This document shows, in pieces, positions 5,095-27,896 of a stretch of 40,345 nucleotides of DNA. Below the pieces are notes generated by a model, which saw nothing but the letters and a program-made list of their open reading frames with translations, ran no database searches and was not told the origin of the DNA. The position numbers and the translations under genes are program-made. Origin of the DNA: Candidatus Iainarchaeum sp. (lineage in GTDB: Archaea; Iainarchaeota; Iainarchaeia; Iainarchaeales; JAZDDZ01). The stretch's first letter is position 1. Each line of letters starts with the position of its first letter. The DNA lies in the NCBI GenBank assembly GCA_043809245.1, contig JAZDDZ010000034.1, positions 1 through 40,345 of the forward strand, written 5' to 3'.

Positions 5095-5178
5095 ATGAAG
5101 CTTTTTAAAAAAATTTTTCGCCTTTTTTTCCGCAAACCCTTATTTTTCAGCGTTCTTTTTTTGGGGGCAACTGAATGA
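5095..5178 (+). CDS. Putative U-rich leader peptide coupled to carA (MKLFKKIFRLFFRKPLFFSVLFLGATE)
   Basis: ATG at promoter-appropriate distance from the TATA box; several T5-T7 runs; stop overlaps the carA start (ATGA). Confidence 0.4.
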   Translation: MKLFKKIFRLFFRKPLFFSVLFLGATE

Positions 5179-6251
5179 AGGCAGTTAAAGGCGTTTTGTC
5201 CCTTGAAGACGGCTCAAAGTGGAGCGGCATTTCATTCGGCGCAAACAAGGCAATGGCTGGGGAAGTTGTCTTTAACACTGGAATGGTTGGCTATCCAGAA
5301 AGCCTGACTGACCCAAGCTATAAGGGCCAGATTTTATGCCTGACTTATCCCCTTATAGGCAATTATGGTGTTCCCCCTAGGAAAAAAAACCGCTTTGGCC
5401 TGCATGAATTCTTTGAATCATGCAAGATTCAGGCCTCAGGGCTTGTCGTTGCCGATTATTCAATGGATTACTCCCATTGGAATGCAGAAAAATCATTGGG
5501 GGCGTGGCTTAAAAGCGAAGGCATTCCCGCTGTAACGGGAATTGATACCCGCGCATTAACAAAAAAGCTAAGGGAAAAGGGCACAATGCTGGGCAAATTA
5601 GAGTTTGGAGCGCAAAAAACAGGTTTTTTTGACCCAAACAAGGAAAACATAGTGAAAGAGGTCAGCCCGAAAAAGTTACAGGTTTACGGCAAAAGAGGCA
5701 AGAAAATCCTGTTGCTTGACTGCGGCGCAAAAAACAATATTTTGAACAATTTTCTCAACCGCGGCTTAAGGGTCATTCGCGCGCCATGGAATTTCAATCC
5801 ATTCAAGAAAAAAATTGACTTTGACGCTTTATTCATCTCAAATGGGCCAGGGGACCCAAAACAATGCATTCAAACAATTGAAACAGTCCGCGAAGCATTA
5901 AAGCGTGAAATTCCAACTCTTGGAATCTGCCTGGGCAACCAGATTCTTGCACTTGCGGCAGGCGCAGACACTTACAAATTAAAGTACGGCCACCGCTCGC
6001 AAAACCAGCCCGCTTTACTGGTTGGCTCGCAGCGCTGTTTAATCACCTCGCAAAACCACGGCTTTGCAGTCAACGAAAAAACTCTGCCGAATGGCTGGCT
6101 GCCATGGTTCAGGAACTTAAACGACGGAAGCAACGAAGGCATCAGGCACAAATCACTTCCATTCCGCTCAGTGCAATTCCACCCCGAATCCACGCCGGGA
6201 CCGAATGACGCGAATTATTTGTTCGAGGAATTCTTGGGGGAAATGAAATGA
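5175..6251 (+). CDS. carA: Carbamoyl-phosphate synthase small subunit
   Basis: GEVVFNTGMVGYPESLTDPSYKGQIL, GIDTRALT, SNGPGDP, GICLG(N)Q, SQNHGFAV, VQFHPE. Confidence 0.97.
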   Translation: MKAVKGVLSLEDGSKWSGISFGANKAMAGEVVFNTGMVGYPESLTDPSYKGQILCLTYPLIGNYGVPPRKKNRFGLHEFFESCKIQASGLVVADYSMDYSHWNAEKSLGAWLKSEGIPAVTGIDTRALTKKLREKGTMLGKLEFGAQKTGFFDPNKENIVKEVSPKKLQVYGKRGKKILLLDCGAKNNILNNFLNRGLRVIRAPWNFNPFKKKIDFDALFISNGPGDPKQCIQTIETVREALKREIPTLGICLGNQILALAAGADTYKLKYGHRSQNQPALLVGSQRCLITSQNHGFAVNEKTLPNGWLPWFRNLNDGSNEGIRHKSLPFRSVQFHPESTPGPNDANYLFEEFLGEMK

Positions 6252-6346
6252 AAAAGCTTGAGGCGCGCGGACTTGTTGAACGCATTGGCAGAATCGCGCC
6301 AAATAGGTCGCTTATTTGGAAACTCAAAGTGGAGGTGGCAGCATAG
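6248..6346 (+). CDS. 32-aa mini-ORF between carA and carB (winged-helix-like remnant or translational relay)
   Basis: MKKLEARGLVERIGRIAPNRSLIWKLKVEVAA*. ATG overlaps the carA TGA, TAG overlaps the candidate ATA start of carB, and the ORF contains the GGAGGTG SD. Confidence 0.4.
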   Translation: MKKLEARGLVERIGRIAPNRSLIWKLKVEVAA

Positions 6347-9300
6347 AAAAAAAAGTAAAGAAAGTTTTGTTGTTGGGCTCTGGTGCCCTGCAAATCGGGC
6401 AGGCAGGCGAAAGTTTATTATGATTCGATTCATTTAAACCGTCTATTCGACTACTCCGGTTCGCAGGCAATCAAGGCGCTCAAGGAAGAGGGCATTGAGG
6501 TTGTCGTTGTAAACCCAAACATTGCAACAGTTCAAACGTCGGAGAATTTTGCTGACAAGGTTTACTTCATTCCCGTGACCCCTTTCTTTGTTGAAAAAAT
6601 TATCGCAAAAGAAAAGCCGCAGGGAATTTTGCTTGGCTTTGGCGGCCAGACTGGATTGAATTGCGGCTTGGAGCTTTCAAAAAAAGGCGTTTTTAAAAAA
6701 TTTGGCGTGAAGGTTTTGGGAACGCAGGTTAATGCGATTGAAAAAACAGAGGACAGGGAATTATTCAACAGGGAATTGAACAAGATTGGCGTCAAGGTGC
6801 CGAAAAGCATTTCCGTGACAAAACAGAAAGCAGCGCTTAATGCCGCGAAAAAAATCCGCTATCCGGTAATTGTACGCGCCGCGTTCGCTTTGGGTGGAAG
6901 GGGCAGCGGAGTCGCGGAAAACGAAAAACAATTAAAGGAACTGACTGAAAAGGTTTTCACGCACAGCCCGCAAATCCTTGTAGAAGAATATCTTGCGGGC
7001 TGGAAAGAGGTTGAATACGAAGTGGTTAGGGACGCGTTTGACAACTGCATTACAGTCTGCAACATGGAGAACTTTGACCCTTTAGGCATTCACACCGGGG
7101 AAAGCATTGTTGTCGCGCCATCGCAAACTTTGACCAACTCCGAGTACCACAAGCTGCGCGACCTCTCAATCAAAGTAATAAGGCATTTCAAAATCGTTGG
7201 AGAATGCAACATCCAGTTTGCCTTGGACCCAAAAAGCGAGGATTACCGCGTAATTGAAGTCAACGCGCGCTTAAGCAGAAGCTCTGCACTTGCTTCAAAG
7301 GCAACAGGCTATCCGCTTGCATTCATTGCAGCAAAGCTAGCGTTAGGGCATTCATTAACGGAACTGCAGAACGCCATCACAAAGAAAACAATGGCTTGCT
7401 TTGAGCCAGCGCTTGACTATATTGTTGTGAAAATTCCAAGGTGGGATCTGCAGAAATTCAGGCTTGTTTCAGACAAGATTGGCTCGGAAATGAAAAGCGT
7501 CGGCGAAGTCATGGCTATAGGCAGGACTTTTGAGGAGGCAATGCAGAAAGCAATCAGGATGCTGCAGATTGGAATGTACGGCCTTGTCGGGAACAGGATT
7601 TTCTTCAAGGAACTTGTGCACGCGTTGAAAAATCCGACTGACAAAAGGGTTTTCGCTGTAATGAATTCCCTGATTCAGGGAAAAAGCGTTGAAGAAATTC
7701 ATTCGCTTACAAAAATAGACAAATGGTTTTTGTTCAAGCTTAAAGGAGTTGTTGACACTAAAAAAAAGCTGAAAAGGCACTCGCTTGCCTCCTTGCCGAA
7801 AGCGCTTTTGCTTGAAGCCAAACAGAAAGGGTTTTCCGACAAGCAGATTGGAATGCTTTTGGGTGAAAAAGACGAATTGAAAGTGAGGGCATTGCGAAAA
7901 AAATTTGGGTTAAGGCCTTTCGTGAAGCAGATTGACACTCTTGCGGCAGAGTGGCCTGCGCAAACCAATTACCTTTACCTAACCTACAATGGGCAGGAAG
8001 ATGATGTTTCCTTTGGGCAAAAAAAGCAGGCAATGGTTTTGGGCTCTGGCGCCTACTGCATTGGCTCAAGCGTTGAATTTGACTGGTGCAGCGTGAAAAC
8101 AGTTCAGGAGCTGAAAAAACTGGGTTACGGCACGATTATGGTCAATTATAACCCTGAAACAGTTTCAACTGATTACGATGAATGCGATAGGCTTTACTTT
8201 GACGAATTAAGCTTTGAAACAGTGCTTGACATTTACGAAAAAGAAAAGCCTTTGGGCATAATTGTTTCAGTTGGCGGGCAGATTCCAAACAACCTTGCAT
8301 TGAAATGCCTTGAAGCGGGATTGAATGTTTTGGGAACCAACCCGAAAAACATCGATAAAGCAGAGGACAGGCATAAATTCAGCAAATTATGCGATTCCCT
8401 TGGAATAGACCAGCCTGAATGGAAAGAATTGAGCACAGAGTCAGAGGCATTGAAATTTGCGGAAAAAACCGGCTACCCTGTGCTTGTAAGGCCAAGCTAT
8501 GTTTTAAGCGGTTCCGCAATGCGCGTTGCATTTTCTCCGCATTCGCTGAAAGAATATCTTGAAAAGGCAACTTCTCTTTCCGCAGAATACCCTGTTGTCA
8601 TGAGCAAATTCATCCTTGATGCAAGGGAAATAGAGATTGACGCTGTTGCAGGAAAAGGCGAATTGCTTGCCTACGCCATAACCGAGCACGTTGAAAACGC
8701 AGGCGTTCACTCAGGCGATGCGACAATGGTTTTGCCTCCGCAGCGCACTTACCTGGAAACAATGAGGCGCATCAAGGAAATAGCTGAACAGCTTGCAAGG
8801 GTTTTGGAAATCACAGGCCCTTTCAACATACAGTTCATTGCAAAAGACAATGAAGTCAAAGTGATTGAATGCAATCTGCGTGCCTCCCGCTCTTTCCCAT
8901 TTGTTTCAAAGGTCTGCGGGAAAAATTTCATTTCAATCGCGGCAAAAGCAATCGTTGGAGAGGAAATTAAGCCAATCGGCAACCCCACAATTGATTTGCC
9001 TCATGTGGGGGTAAAGGCGCCGATGTTTTCCTTTTCACGCCTGCGCGGTGCAGACCCAATTCTTGGCGTTGAAATGGCTTCAACAGGGGAGGTTGGATGC
9101 ATTGGAAAGGACCTAGACGACGCCTATCTCAAGGCAGTAATCTCAACTGGCTTAAGCATTCCGGAAAAAAACATTTTGCTCACAATCAGCGGTGACGAGA
9201 ACCGCTTCAAGCTATTGAACAAGGTAAAGCAGCTCAAGGAAGCGGGCTACCATCTTTTTGCAACAGAGCATACTGCCGCATTCTATAAGCAGAACGGAAT

Positions 9301-9571
9301 TGATTGCACATTGCTTCACAAGATTCAGGAGCAGGGGAAAAAGCCGAATGTTTCCGATTTCATGCGCCAGAAAAAGATTGACTTTGTAATCACTATTCCC
9401 GATGCAAAGAAGCAGATTGATTTGGACCGCAATTATCTGCTGCGCCGCGCAGCTGTTGACCACTCAATTCCGCTTATCACGAACCTTCAGGCTGCAAAGC
9501 TTTTCATTGCCGCGATTCTGAAGAAAAAGGAATCGGATTTGGAAGTCAAGGCCTGGCAGGAATATTTTTAG
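6343..9571 (+). CDS. carB: Carbamoyl-phosphate synthase large subunit, two exons join(6343..6411,6446..9571); start is either ATA 6343 or TTG 6316
   Basis: Exon 1 reads [23 protein letters not shown] and exon 2 reads [16 protein letters not shown].... Two ATP-grasp domains (GIHTGES, GVHSGDA, IEVNARLSRSSALASKATG) and a C-terminal MGS-like domain follow. Confidence 0.93.
6412..6445 (+). other. Putative 34-nt bulge-helix-bulge (BHB) intron in carB pre-mRNA
   Basis: Central helix GGCG(6406-6409)/CGUC(6440-6443), 3-nt bulges AA^A(6410-6412) and UA^U(6444-6446), inner stems GUUUA/UAAAC and AUGA/UCAU. Removal restores [10 protein letters not shown] in frame. Confidence 0.85.
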
Positions 9572-27823: not shown

Positions 27824-27896
27824 TGGGGTCGCAGGGATTTGAACCCTGATCAGCTGGTCTGGAGCCAGCCGCACTGCCTGGTTATGCTACAACCCC
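27824..27896 (-). tRNA. tRNA-Trp(CCA), intronless, 3' CCA not encoded
   Basis: Cloverleaf: acceptor GGGGTTG/CGACCCC plus A73, D-stem GCAT/GTGC, anticodon arm GCTGG-CTCCAGA-CCAGC, T-arm CAGGG-TTCAAAT-CCCTG. Confidence 0.95.

What the first reader, a model, noticed from the sequence alone, without database searches (positions are those of the whole stretch)
6393..6461. Bulge-helix-bulge intron inside a metabolic protein-coding gene (carB)
Seen: the highly conserved CarB motif GQAGE|FDYSG is split by 34 nt (6412-6445, AGTTTATTATGATTCGATTCATTTAAACCGTCTA), which shifts the frame and adds an in-frame TGA. The RNA folds as a canonical BHB: 4-bp helix GGCG/CGUC, 3-nt bulges AAA and UAU each 3' of the helix, intron stem GUUUA/UAAAC plus AUGA/UCAU, closing A6405-U6447 pair, and an imperfect exon stem AAUCGGG/UCCGGUU. 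Known: archaeal tRNA-splicing endonuclease cuts after the second nt of each bulge. Here that is after 6411 and after 6445, exactly the junctions that rebuild GAA-TTC (E-F). The best-established archaeal mRNA intron is in crenarchaeal cbf5. Inference: this lineage splices mRNA of a core biosynthetic gene with EndA/RtcB, possibly as a regulatory step, and more such micro-introns may be hidden as apparent frameshifts genome-wide.
Basis: partly seen in the sequence, partly recalled or inferred. Interest (0 to 1): 0.95.

Follow-up and report, generated by a model that had tools for sequence, protein, structure and literature searches.

The report
Spliced tRNA-type micro-intron inside carB
A 34-base intron of the kind normally found in archaeal tRNAs interrupts the carbamoyl-phosphate synthase gene of this small archaeon, and the same site is interrupted in many relatives and in ammonia-oxidising archaea, where RNA reads show the intron is cut out exactly as predicted.

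Summary

It is not chance, decay or an assembly error:
- An insertion at the same nucleotide occurs in 19 of 64 carB-bearing genomes of the window's own order. Relatives there carry record titles naming Candidatus Iainarchaeum (DPANN).
- It also occurs in about 144 of 150 listed Nitrososphaeraceae rows and in other members of that order, including complete genomes.
- Sixty unique copies (20-42 nt) keep the 4-bp helix, both 3-nt bulges and the intron stem. The stem shows many compensatory changes.
- Exon codons keep a 7-bp outer helix that uninterrupted genes lack.

RNA-seq of a Nitrososphaeraceae genome with a 33-nt copy shows the exons joined exactly at the predicted sites. One run gave 774 reads, and spliced contigs appeared in two further studies.

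Not shown: splicing in the window's own organism. EndA is missing from its 91.8%-complete assembly, although RtcB and BHB tRNA introns are present.

The motif is relaxed (HBh'-like), not canonical. A homology scan found no second such intron in this genome. I found no paper describing a carB intron; only cbf5 is reported as a coding-sequence case.

The parts
5175..6251 (+). carA (glutamine amidotransferase subunit), intact, directly upstream
   Evidence: translation (358 aa). Pfam: CPSase_sm_chain 8e-50, GATase 3e-50.
6316..6411 (+). carB exon 1. The start is uncertain: TTG 6316, or ATA 6343 which lies 5 nt after a GGAGGTG at 6331-6337. The exon ends with ...KKVLLLGSGALQIGQAGE.
   Evidence: translation; the same peptide is contiguous with FDYSG in uninterrupted orthologues.
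6412..6445 (+). 34-nt BHB-type intron; it shifts the frame and carries TGA at 6421-6423 in the exon-1 frame
   Evidence: Its boundaries are fixed by orthologues (exon 1 ends at 6411, 34 extra nt) and by the BHB register.
6446..9571 (+). carB exon 2 (1041 codons plus stop), with all CarB domains
   Evidence: Pfam: CPSase_L_D2 1.5e-107, CPSase_L_D1, CPSase_L_D3, MGS; 63-73% identity to full-length orthologues.
6406..6409 (+). Central helix H, 5' strand (GGCG, exon 1)
   Evidence: helix 3: 96.7% of cells paired.
6440..6443 (+). Central helix H, 3' strand (CGUC, intron)
   Evidence: G-C/G-U variation, and double changes GGUG/CACY in two genomes of the order that contains Nitrososphaeraceae.
6410..6412 (+). 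5' bulge AAA; predicted cut after 6411
   Evidence: AAA in 39 of 43 unique copies. The same register is seen in own tRNA introns and at the RNA-seq joint of the homologue.
6444..6446 (+). 3' bulge UAU; predicted cut after 6445
   Evidence: NAU/NGU/AUU variants, always 3 nt in this register. Also.
6413..6439 (+). Intron stem-loop h': 6413-6417 pairs with 6435-6439; inner stem 6420-6423 pairs with 6430-6433
   Evidence: helix 4: 4 of 5 pairs show changes on both sides.
6393..6399 (+). Distal exon-exon helix, 5' strand (AAUCGGG)
   Evidence: 7/7 paired in 37 of 43 interrupted genes against 2 of 43 uninterrupted genes.
6455..6461 (+). Distal exon-exon helix, 3' strand (UCCGGUU)
   Evidence: helix 1: 91.2% of cells paired.
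6390..6465 (+). Whole structured element as matched by the covariance model
   Evidence: 91.4 bits, E 9.5e-27, the only match in the window. The window's own copy was one of the six sequences used to build the model.

Best explanation
Window 6412-6445 is a genuine archaeal bulge-helix-bulge micro-intron inside the coding sequence of carB.

Proposed mechanism: the carAB transcript folds so that exon-1 GGCG pairs with intron CGUC. Two 3-nt bulges lie on opposite strands of this helix, an intron stem-loop lies on one side and a long imperfect exon-exon arm on the other. The tRNA-splicing endonuclease (EndA) cuts after the second base of each bulge, that is after 6411 and after 6445. RtcB then joins the exons, rebuilding ...GQAGE-FDYSG... 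and an mRNA for a full-length CarB.

Shown here: the DNA insertion, the conserved and covarying structure, the shared cut register with this genome's own tRNA introns, and exact RNA-level excision of the homologous intron in a Nitrososphaeraceae genome.

Inferred: that EndA and RtcB are the enzymes, and that the window's own organism splices its copy.

The intron is old or recurrent. It sits at one nucleotide position in two archaeal kingdoms and has been gained or lost many times within the window's order.
For: 1. Same-site insertions.
- 4 of 18 carB loci of 40 relatives.
- 19 of 64 carB-bearing genomes among 196 of the order, all read, 33-42 nt long.
- 23 of 24 hits of a pattern scan over species genomes are carB split at this site. 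These are 19 records titled Nitrososphaeraceae, Nitrososphaerales, Nitrososphaera or Thermoproteota, and 4 Iainarchaeum-like or 'uncultured archaeon' records.
- In a Nitrososphaeraceae sample, 144 of the 150 listed rows look interrupted, and 7 of 7 such loci that I read are interrupted.
- In the order sample, 50 of 123 genomes look interrupted, and 20 of 20 that I read are interrupted, with 20-30 nt introns.

2. Structure.
- In 43 unique copies, h' pairs 1-3 are paired 43/43 with several pair types. H is GGCG/CGYC.
- On a model-fitted alignment of 61 rows, 91.9% of cells pair, against 22-49% when partners are slid. 108 cells show a change on both sides, against 32.0 +/- 9.2 in shuffles (0 of 500 shuffles reach it). 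The covariation score is 0.333 against 0.177 (0 of 500).

3. Exon constraint. The distal helix is 7/7 paired in 37 of 43 interrupted genes and 2 of 43 uninterrupted genes. The Gly codon before the site is GGC in 42 of 43 interrupted genes, but mixed in uninterrupted genes.

4. RNA (laid on L109, whose 33-nt intron is 1048-1080).
- A joint 1047->1081 'skips 33' is seen in 774 reads from 82 start places in raw-read run X23.
- The same joint is in a contig of depth 1331 in X2 and in a 3222-nt contig in X14. These three runs come from three studies.
- An unspliced contig (depth 252.5) is also present in X2.
- Depth in the bin 1042-1075 is 272, against 869 and 917 in the bins beside it.

5. Machinery.
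- RtcB is in the own genome (590 bits).
- EndA is in 37 of 40 relatives, including the three other intron carriers first found.
- Of the 15 tRNA introns ARAGORN predicts in the genome (11 were short enough to examine), four have a full 4-bp H helix and a 5-6-bp outer helix and are cut after the second bulge base.

6. The gene is otherwise intact, and its branch length in the tree is ordinary.
Against: - There are no RNA data for the window's own organism or order.
- EndA was not found in the own assembly with PF01974 (even at E <= 10), with TIGR00324, or by tblastn with five relatives' EndA proteins. The assembly is 91.8% complete in 55 contigs.
- The helix beside the 3' bulge is a single A-U pair, so the motif is relaxed.
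- The EndA of relatives is a single protein of about 170 aa that aligns without gaps to the M. jannaschii homotetramer. The literature describes that type as strict for canonical BHB (PMC5829648, passages read).
- In the window, the exon-2 frame is open back to GTG 6383, so an unspliced product is formally possible.
- Covariation counts come from related sequences and from an alignment fitted to the model, so they lean towards the structure.
Confidence: 0.9

Rival explanations
1. No splicing. carB is translated from GTG 6383 in the exon-2 frame, straight through the 34 nt. This gives the 1062-aa product a gene caller would report, with a divergent N-terminus.
For: One search lists ORF 6383-9571, and one search shows it is open.
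Against: - That product lacks KKVLLLGSGALQIGQAGE, which is nevertheless perfectly encoded just upstream in another frame and is contiguous with FDYSG in all uninterrupted orthologues.
- In other carriers the insertion has stops in the exon-2 frame, for example L010 and L013, so that reading is closed there.
- It does not explain the covarying BHB.
- In the homologue, RNA reads remove the insert.
Confidence: 0.04
2. Translational recoding: a programmed frameshift or ribosomal bypass across the insertion, with the RNA left intact.
For: The exon-1 and exon-2 frames overlap between 6383 and 6420, so a single shift there could fuse them. The structured RNA could act as a stimulator.
Against: - A frameshift would add about 11 residues inside a nearly invariant motif.
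- Copies of 21, 33, 39 and 42 nt are multiples of three with in-frame stops, so they would need a different mechanism.
- The homologous insert is removed from the RNA itself.
- The element has the exact BHB register of this genome's tRNA introns.
Confidence: 0.02
3. A decaying pseudogene or a neutral insertion scar.
For: Frameshift plus premature TGA. Most genomes of the order have no detectable carB at all: 132 of 196 had no match.
Against: - Exon 2 is an unbroken 1041 codons with every domain.
- carA is intact.
- The branch length is ordinary.
- The insertion is at one nucleotide position in 60 unique copies, with compensatory changes and exon codon constraint.
Confidence: 0.02
4. An assembly or sequencing artefact.
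For: The genome is a fragmented assembly of 55 contigs. DNA reads of the source sample were not examined.
Against: - Independent genomes of the same order carry 33-42-nt inserts at the same site. One is another 34-nt copy that differs at several loop positions.
- Complete single-contig genomes in the order that contains Nitrososphaeraceae carry it too.
Confidence: 0.01

Closest known systems
cbf5 pre-mRNA intron of Crenarchaeota (Watanabe 2002; Yoshinari 2006; Yokobori 2009, PMC2738675: abstract, passages and Table 1 rows read)
   Same: - A short BHB-type intron inside a protein-coding sequence (cbf5: 22-31 nt in Sulfolobales according to their table).
- A relaxed cleavage motif.
- Removal restores the reading frame.
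- Patchy distribution with lineage-specific loss.
- Gene callers mis-annotate it.
   Different: - The host gene is a metabolic enzyme (carB), not an RNA-modification enzyme.
- The lineages are Iainarchaeales (DPANN) and the order containing Nitrososphaeraceae, not Desulfurococcales or Sulfolobales.
- The Iainarchaeales EndA looks like a single alpha4-type protein, whereas cbf5 splicing was linked to hetero-oligomeric EndA.
- Cbf5 itself (PF01509) was not found in 5 of 5 Iainarchaeales genomes searched.
Archaeal tRNA BHB introns
   Same: The geometry is the same: a 4-bp helix, two 3-nt bulges and a cut after the second bulge base. This is seen in this genome's own tRNA-Pro, tRNA-Asp, tRNA-Tyr and tRNA-Arg(tct) genes. 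The presumed enzymes, EndA and RtcB, are the same.
   Different: - The context is an mRNA, with no tRNA body.
- In those tRNAs the outer helix h is strong (5-6 bp) and h' is weak. In carB h' is strong, while h is a single pair plus a distal 7-bp exon helix.
BHB processing in the 5' UTR of HVO_1309 mRNA in Haloferax volcanii (PMC7714728, passages read)
   Same: The splicing endonuclease acts on an mRNA outside tRNA and rRNA.
   Different: That site lies in an untranslated leader. Here the intron interrupts the coding sequence and must be removed to make the protein.
IRE1/RtcB unconventional splicing of XBP1/HAC1 mRNA in eukaryotes (recalled; mentioned in PMC13149111, passages read)
   Same: A small intron is removed from a coding sequence by a protein endonuclease and an RtcB-type ligation. 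This changes the reading frame without a spliceosome.
   Different: The endonuclease (IRE1) and the RNA motif differ. That event is a regulated stress switch, and no regulation is shown here.

Membership tests
Archaeal BHB (EndA-type) intron | Two 3-nt bulges on opposite strands, separated by a 4-bp helix | tested here: met
   Window: GGCG/CGUC with AAA and UAU. Kept in 43 of 43 unique copies in this register; 38 have four standard pairs in H or only G-U variation at pair 2, and pair 1 is G-A in 2 and G-U in 3. Helix 3 is 96.7% paired.
Archaeal BHB (EndA-type) intron | Flanking helices h (exon side) and h' (intron side), as in the canonical hBHBh' | tested here: inconclusive
   h' is 5 bp in the window, and its first 3 pairs are paired in 43 of 43 copies. 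h next to the 3' bulge is only A6405-U6447 (73.8% of cells paired), followed by a loop and a 7-bp distal exon helix. This makes it a relaxed HBh'-like form.
Archaeal BHB (EndA-type) intron | Excision exactly at the symmetric bulge positions, with exon ligation | tested here: met
   Met for the homologous 33-nt copy (L109): joint 1047->1081 with no ambiguity (both = 0), 774 reads, and contigs in 2 more runs.
Archaeal BHB (EndA-type) intron | Structure maintained by compensatory change | tested here: met
   6 pairs with changes on both sides, 108 such cells against 32.0 +/- 9.2 in shuffles, and slid controls at 22-49% paired. H-helix GGUG/CACY in L211 and L212. Caveat: the sequences are related and the alignment was fitted to the model.
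Archaeal BHB (EndA-type) intron | A splicing endonuclease (EndA) encoded by the organism | tested here: inconclusive
   Not found in the own assembly, which is 91.8% complete. Found once each in 37 of 40 relatives. The genome has BHB tRNA introns, so an EndA is expected.
Archaeal BHB (EndA-type) intron | An RtcB-type 3'-phosphate RNA ligase | tested here: met
   G000 contig C54, 30094-31398, PF01139, 590.4 bits, no stops.
Archaeal BHB (EndA-type) intron | Cleavage by purified EndA in vitro | not testable with these tools
   Needs bench work.
Archaeal pre-mRNA intron of the cbf5 kind | Lies in a coding sequence, and its removal restores one conserved open reading frame | tested here: met
   exon 1 ends in ...GQAGE and exon 2 starts with FDYSG. 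The two are contiguous in 43 unique uninterrupted orthologues.
Archaeal pre-mRNA intron of the cbf5 kind | Association with a hetero-oligomeric (alpha-beta)2 EndA, as proposed by Yoshinari 2006 and Yokobori 2009 | tested here: not met
   Relatives in the order have one PF01974 match each. The G040 protein (169 aa) aligns without gaps, residues 5-168, to 1a79, the M. jannaschii homotetramer. For Thaumarchaeota, the older name covering the Nitrososphaeraceae lineage, PMC5829648 reports (alpha-beta)2; I did not test this.
Self-splicing group I or group II intron | A catalytic RNA core of hundreds of nucleotides | tested here: not met
   The insert is 34 nt (20-42 nt across copies). The Rfam gathering search of the window finds only tRNA-Trp.

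The most novel reading that the evidence does not exclude
The carB element may be a site-specific, protein-less mobile micro-intron. On this reading, a BHB cassette repeatedly enters and leaves a single nucleotide position in carB across two archaeal kingdoms (Nanobdellati and Thermoproteati). The spliced junction at that position carries the palindrome CGAATTCG. Spread would occur by reverse action of the EndA/RtcB pair on mRNA followed by cDNA recombination, or by allele exchange.

Evidence that leaves this open:
- Interrupted genes of the two phyla do not group together in the CarB tree.
- Presence or absence needs at least 9 changes inside one order.
- Near-identical CarB proteins differ by the intron (L074 and L197).

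A side reading is that a plain alpha4-type EndA handles a relaxed motif in an mRNA. That would go against the reported link between pre-mRNA splicing and hetero-oligomeric EndA.
Probability: 0.15. Interest if true: 0.9.

Novelty: new member of a known kind. Interest (0 to 1): 0.8.

Why it matters
- In the papers I could read, cbf5 of Crenarchaeota is the only archaeal protein-coding sequence with a confirmed BHB intron (PMC2738675, PMC7714728). A second gene widens that picture: it is a core metabolic gene, it occurs in DPANN and in ammonia-oxidising archaea including complete genomes, and read-level evidence shows exact excision.
- It matters for annotation. Gene callers will report carB in these lineages as truncated, frameshifted or N-terminally odd. 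The window's own 6383-9571 ORF is such a call. Metabolic reconstructions of arginine and pyrimidine synthesis could go wrong as a result.
- It offers a tractable system, because public RNA-seq data sets already show the splice. It could be used to ask whether mRNA splicing by EndA and RtcB is regulated, how a relaxed motif is recognised outside a tRNA, and how such introns are gained and lost.

Tried and rejected
- Naive genome-wide scan for BHB plus restored ORF. It gave 50,710 structural candidates, 3,648 of which passed a loose ORF test and 628 loci a stricter one. Most were gene boundaries and chance, so I abandoned it as non-discriminating.
- Homology scan against the complete relative G016. 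I took 3,956 stop-to-stop ORFs and reduced them to 1,280 non-overlapping ones.
  - Six split-HSP candidates looked like antisense or gene-boundary artefacts without a convincing BHB.
  - Of 534 end-extension tests, 14 passed the thresholds, and carB was top (score 94, 34 extra nt, exon end 6411).
  - Two of the others sit on tRNA genes that lie upstream in both genomes.
  - Five further candidates that I read are open low-complexity stretches or weak matches without a convincing BHB; six low-scoring ones were not read.
  - So there is no second BHB intron among genes shared with G016. The scan is blind to introns shared by both genomes, to exons under about 10 aa, and to genes that G016 lacks.
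- Whole-gene transfer between phyla as the reason for the shared site: rejected. The CarB rows group by phylum.
- cbf5 as an in-genome comparator: PF01509 was not found in G000, G016, G040, G013 or G015.
- Other DPANN lineages. The whole phylum held here has 215 genomes, and only one further carB was found. It is uninterrupted.
- Literature searches for a carB intron found none in the held library. Subscription journals and supplementary files were not visible, and genome-paper supplements or GenBank notes might mention it.
- Correction: an earlier count said EndA was found in 36 of 40 relatives. One search gives 37 of 40.
Full report
**1. The observation**

The window carries carA (5175-6251) followed by carB. 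Reading carB in the frame that encodes ...KKVLLLGSGALQIGQAGE, the sequence reaches GAA at 6409-6411 and then enters 34 nt (6412-6445) that contain TGA at 6421-6423. FDYSGSQAIK... begins at 6446 in a different frame and stays open for 1041 codons. That stretch contains every CarB domain.

RNAfold gives -21.3 kcal/mol with z = -2.36, which is unremarkable on its own.

One correction is needed. The helix beside the 3' bulge is only A6405-U6447, followed by an internal loop and a 7-bp exon-exon helix (6393-6399 with 6455-6461). The motif is therefore a relaxed HBh'-like form rather than a canonical hBHBh'.

**2. The organism**

- The window is contig C34 of a 1.48-Mb assembly with 55 contigs, 91.8% complete.
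- ARAGORN predicts 43 tRNA genes, 15 of them with introns, which marks an archaeon.
- Relatives in the same order include records titled Candidatus Iainarchaeum. That genus belongs to Iainarchaeales, in the kingdom Nanobdellati, i.e. DPANN.
- RtcB is present.
- EndA was not found with two profile families or by tblastn with five relatives' proteins. It is present once in each of 37 of 40 relatives. The gene probably lies in the unassembled part of the genome, but that is an inference.
- The EndA of relative G040 (169 aa) aligns without gaps to the M. jannaschii homotetrameric enzyme 1a79.

**3. The same site is interrupted in other genomes**

Within the window's order:
- Among 40 relatives, 4 of 18 carB loci with the motif carry an insertion exactly between GE and FD: 34, 34, 39 and 39 nt.
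- Across the whole order (196 genomes, 64 with carB), 19 carry it. I read all 19; they are 33-42 nt.

Across species-representative genomes:
- A pattern scan returned 24 loci. One is a chance hit.
- The other 23 are carB split at this site. Nineteen come from records titled Nitrososphaeraceae, Nitrososphaerales, Nitrososphaera or Thermoproteota. Four come from Iainarchaeum-like or 'uncultured archaeon' records.

Within Nitrososphaeraceae and its order:
- In a sample of 201 Nitrososphaeraceae genomes, 183 had carB. Of the 150 rows listed, only 6 are uninterrupted. This tally includes five unpublished genomes.
- All 7 interrupted loci that I read carry 21-33-nt inserts, four of them from single-contig genomes of 2.53-3.43 Mb. 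All 6 uninterrupted loci that I read are clean.
- In a sample of the order, 50 of 123 genomes with carB look interrupted.
- All 20 that I read there carry inserts of 20-30 nt. Seven of these come from single contigs of 1.50-1.76 Mb.

**4. Structure and covariation**

In 43 unique interrupted sequences:
- The central helix is GGCG/CGYC.
- The 5' bulge is AAA in 39.
- The first three pairs of the intron stem are paired in all 43, with several pair types. Position 2 is U-A 22, C-G 19, U-G 2. Position 3 is C-G 24, A-U 9, U-A 6, U-G 4.

Two genomes of the order that contains Nitrososphaeraceae have GGUG/CACY in the central helix, a change on both strands.

I built a covariance model from the six 34-nt copies. 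It matched all 60 unique interrupted loci and, weakly, 1 of 6 uninterrupted controls. On the resulting 61-row alignment:
- 91.9% of cells form standard pairs, against 22-49% when partners are slid by 1-3 columns.
- 108 cells show changes on both sides, against 32.0 +/- 9.2 in shuffles (0 of 500 reach it).
- The covariation score is 0.333 against 0.177 (0 of 500).

These counts lean towards the structure, because the rows are related and were fitted to the model.

The exons are constrained as well:
- The distal helix is 7/7 paired in 37 of 43 interrupted genes, against 2 of 43 uninterrupted genes.
- The glycine codon before the site is GGC in 42 of 43 interrupted genes. In uninterrupted genes it is GGA 18, GGC 14, GGG 6, GGU 4.

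**5. Cut register**

In tRNA-Pro, tRNA-Asp, tRNA-Tyr and tRNA-Arg(tct) of this genome, the intron borders lie after the second base of 3-nt bulges that flank a 4-bp helix. The anticodon stem forms the 5-6-bp outer helix. The same register in carB places the cuts after 6411 and after 6445.

**6. RNA evidence**

Its carB carries a 33-nt copy at L109 1048-1080. Twenty RNA-seq runs from five studies hold the locus.

Four runs were laid on L109:600-1600:
- A joint from 1047 to 1081 ('skips 33', no positional ambiguity) is seen in 774 reads from 82 start places in raw-read run X23.
- The same joint is in a contig of depth 1331 in X2 and in a 3222-nt contig in X14.
- X22 did not cover the site.
- An unspliced contig (1019-1099, depth 252.5) is also present in X2.
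- In X23, the bin over the intron has depth 272, against 869 and 917 in the bins beside it. My rough estimate from these figures is about five spliced molecules to one unspliced.
- The strand bias (764 against 10) fits sense transcripts in a stranded library.

This shows RNA-level excision at exactly the predicted BHB positions for a homologous copy. It does not show it for the window's own organism.

**7. Evolution**

I built a CarB tree of 68 unique rows, using the first 640 residues from FDYSG (IQ-TREE quick, LG+G4; 9 duplicate rows and sequences under 550 aa were left out).
- All Nitrososphaeraceae rows fall in one clade (support 100). The Iainarchaeales rows lie outside it; L018 joins the Nitrososphaeraceae side at the midpoint root.
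- Interrupted genes of the two phyla do not group together.
- Inside Iainarchaeales, the interrupted state needs 13 changes, at least 9 of them forced by well-supported branches. This is barely more clustered than shuffled labels (mean 15.3; 39 of 500 shuffles are as low).
- Near-identical proteins differ by the intron (L074 and L197).
- The five uninterrupted Nitrososphaeraceae rows sit in one subclade.

So the intron is either old with many losses, or it is gained repeatedly at one site. The data do not decide between these.

**8. Other such introns in this genome**

A structural scan alone was useless. A homology scan against the complete relative G016 recovered carB as the top candidate and found nothing else convincing. 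Its blind spots are listed under Tried and rejected.

**9. What is known**

- Papers read in passages state that cbf5 of Crenarchaeota is the only confirmed archaeal pre-mRNA intron (PMC2738675, conclusion).
- As of 2020, one further mRNA substrate of the endonuclease is reported, in the 5' UTR of Haloferax HVO_1309 (PMC7714728).
- PMC5829648 links relaxed-motif cleavage to (alpha-beta)2 and epsilon2 enzymes or to inserted loops. The Iainarchaeales enzyme shows no insertion relative to 1a79.
- Eight full-text searches found no report of a carB intron.

**10. Verdict**

[quoted passage not shown] It is found here in a metabolic gene and in lineages where none was reported, and it has read-level proof of excision in a homologue. 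My confidence that the window's copy is spliced in the same way is 0.9.

Noticed in passing
window 6316-6345: carB exon 1 has no ATG or GTG start. The candidates are TTG 6316 and ATA 6343. ATA 6343 lies 5 nt downstream of a Shine-Dalgarno-like GGAGGTG (6331-6337), at the position where relatives have GTG or ATG.
   Followed up: partly
G000, G016, G040, G013, G015 (whole genomes): The Cbf5/TruB_N family PF01509 was not found in 5 of 5 Iainarchaeales genomes searched, including a complete single-contig genome, while all 14 control genomes matched it. The lineage may lack the H/ACA pseudouridine synthase.
   Followed up: partly
G000 contigs C31:3579-5047 and C32:1009-2562: The same pair of genes, tRNA-Ser(tga) and an intron-bearing tRNA-Leu(gag), appears on two contigs with the same spacing and identical tRNA-Leu intron junction sequences. 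This is probably assembly redundancy or a recent duplication.
   Followed up: no
G000 C2:3352-3456 and C10:42032-42203: Two tRNA-Met genes are predicted with introns at non-canonical positions. The C2 copy has a 4-bp H helix and a 7-bp intron stem but a weak outer helix, so this organism's endonuclease must already accept relaxed motifs in tRNAs.
   Followed up: partly
window 27824-27896 (-): tRNA-Trp(cca) has no intron. A conserved tRNA upstream of the neighbouring gene produced a false 'split gene' signal in the homology scan.
   Followed up: partly
G362:C1:1140508-1141086 (L116, L203): This single-contig Nitrososphaeraceae genome has an uninterrupted carB start, but the open frame reported is only 382 aa. 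The gene may be broken further downstream.
   Followed up: no
order of G000: Only 64 of 196 genomes of the order have a detectable carB. Whole families lack it, for example 0 of 38, 0 of 22 and 0 of 13. De novo carbamoyl-phosphate synthesis is therefore patchy in this DPANN group.
   Followed up: no
window 6404-6453 after removal of 6412-6445: The exon junction created by splicing carries an 8-nt palindrome with an EcoRI-type core. It is conserved because of the Glu-Phe-Asp codons in most interrupted genes. Its meaning for intron gain, if any, is unknown.
   Followed up: no
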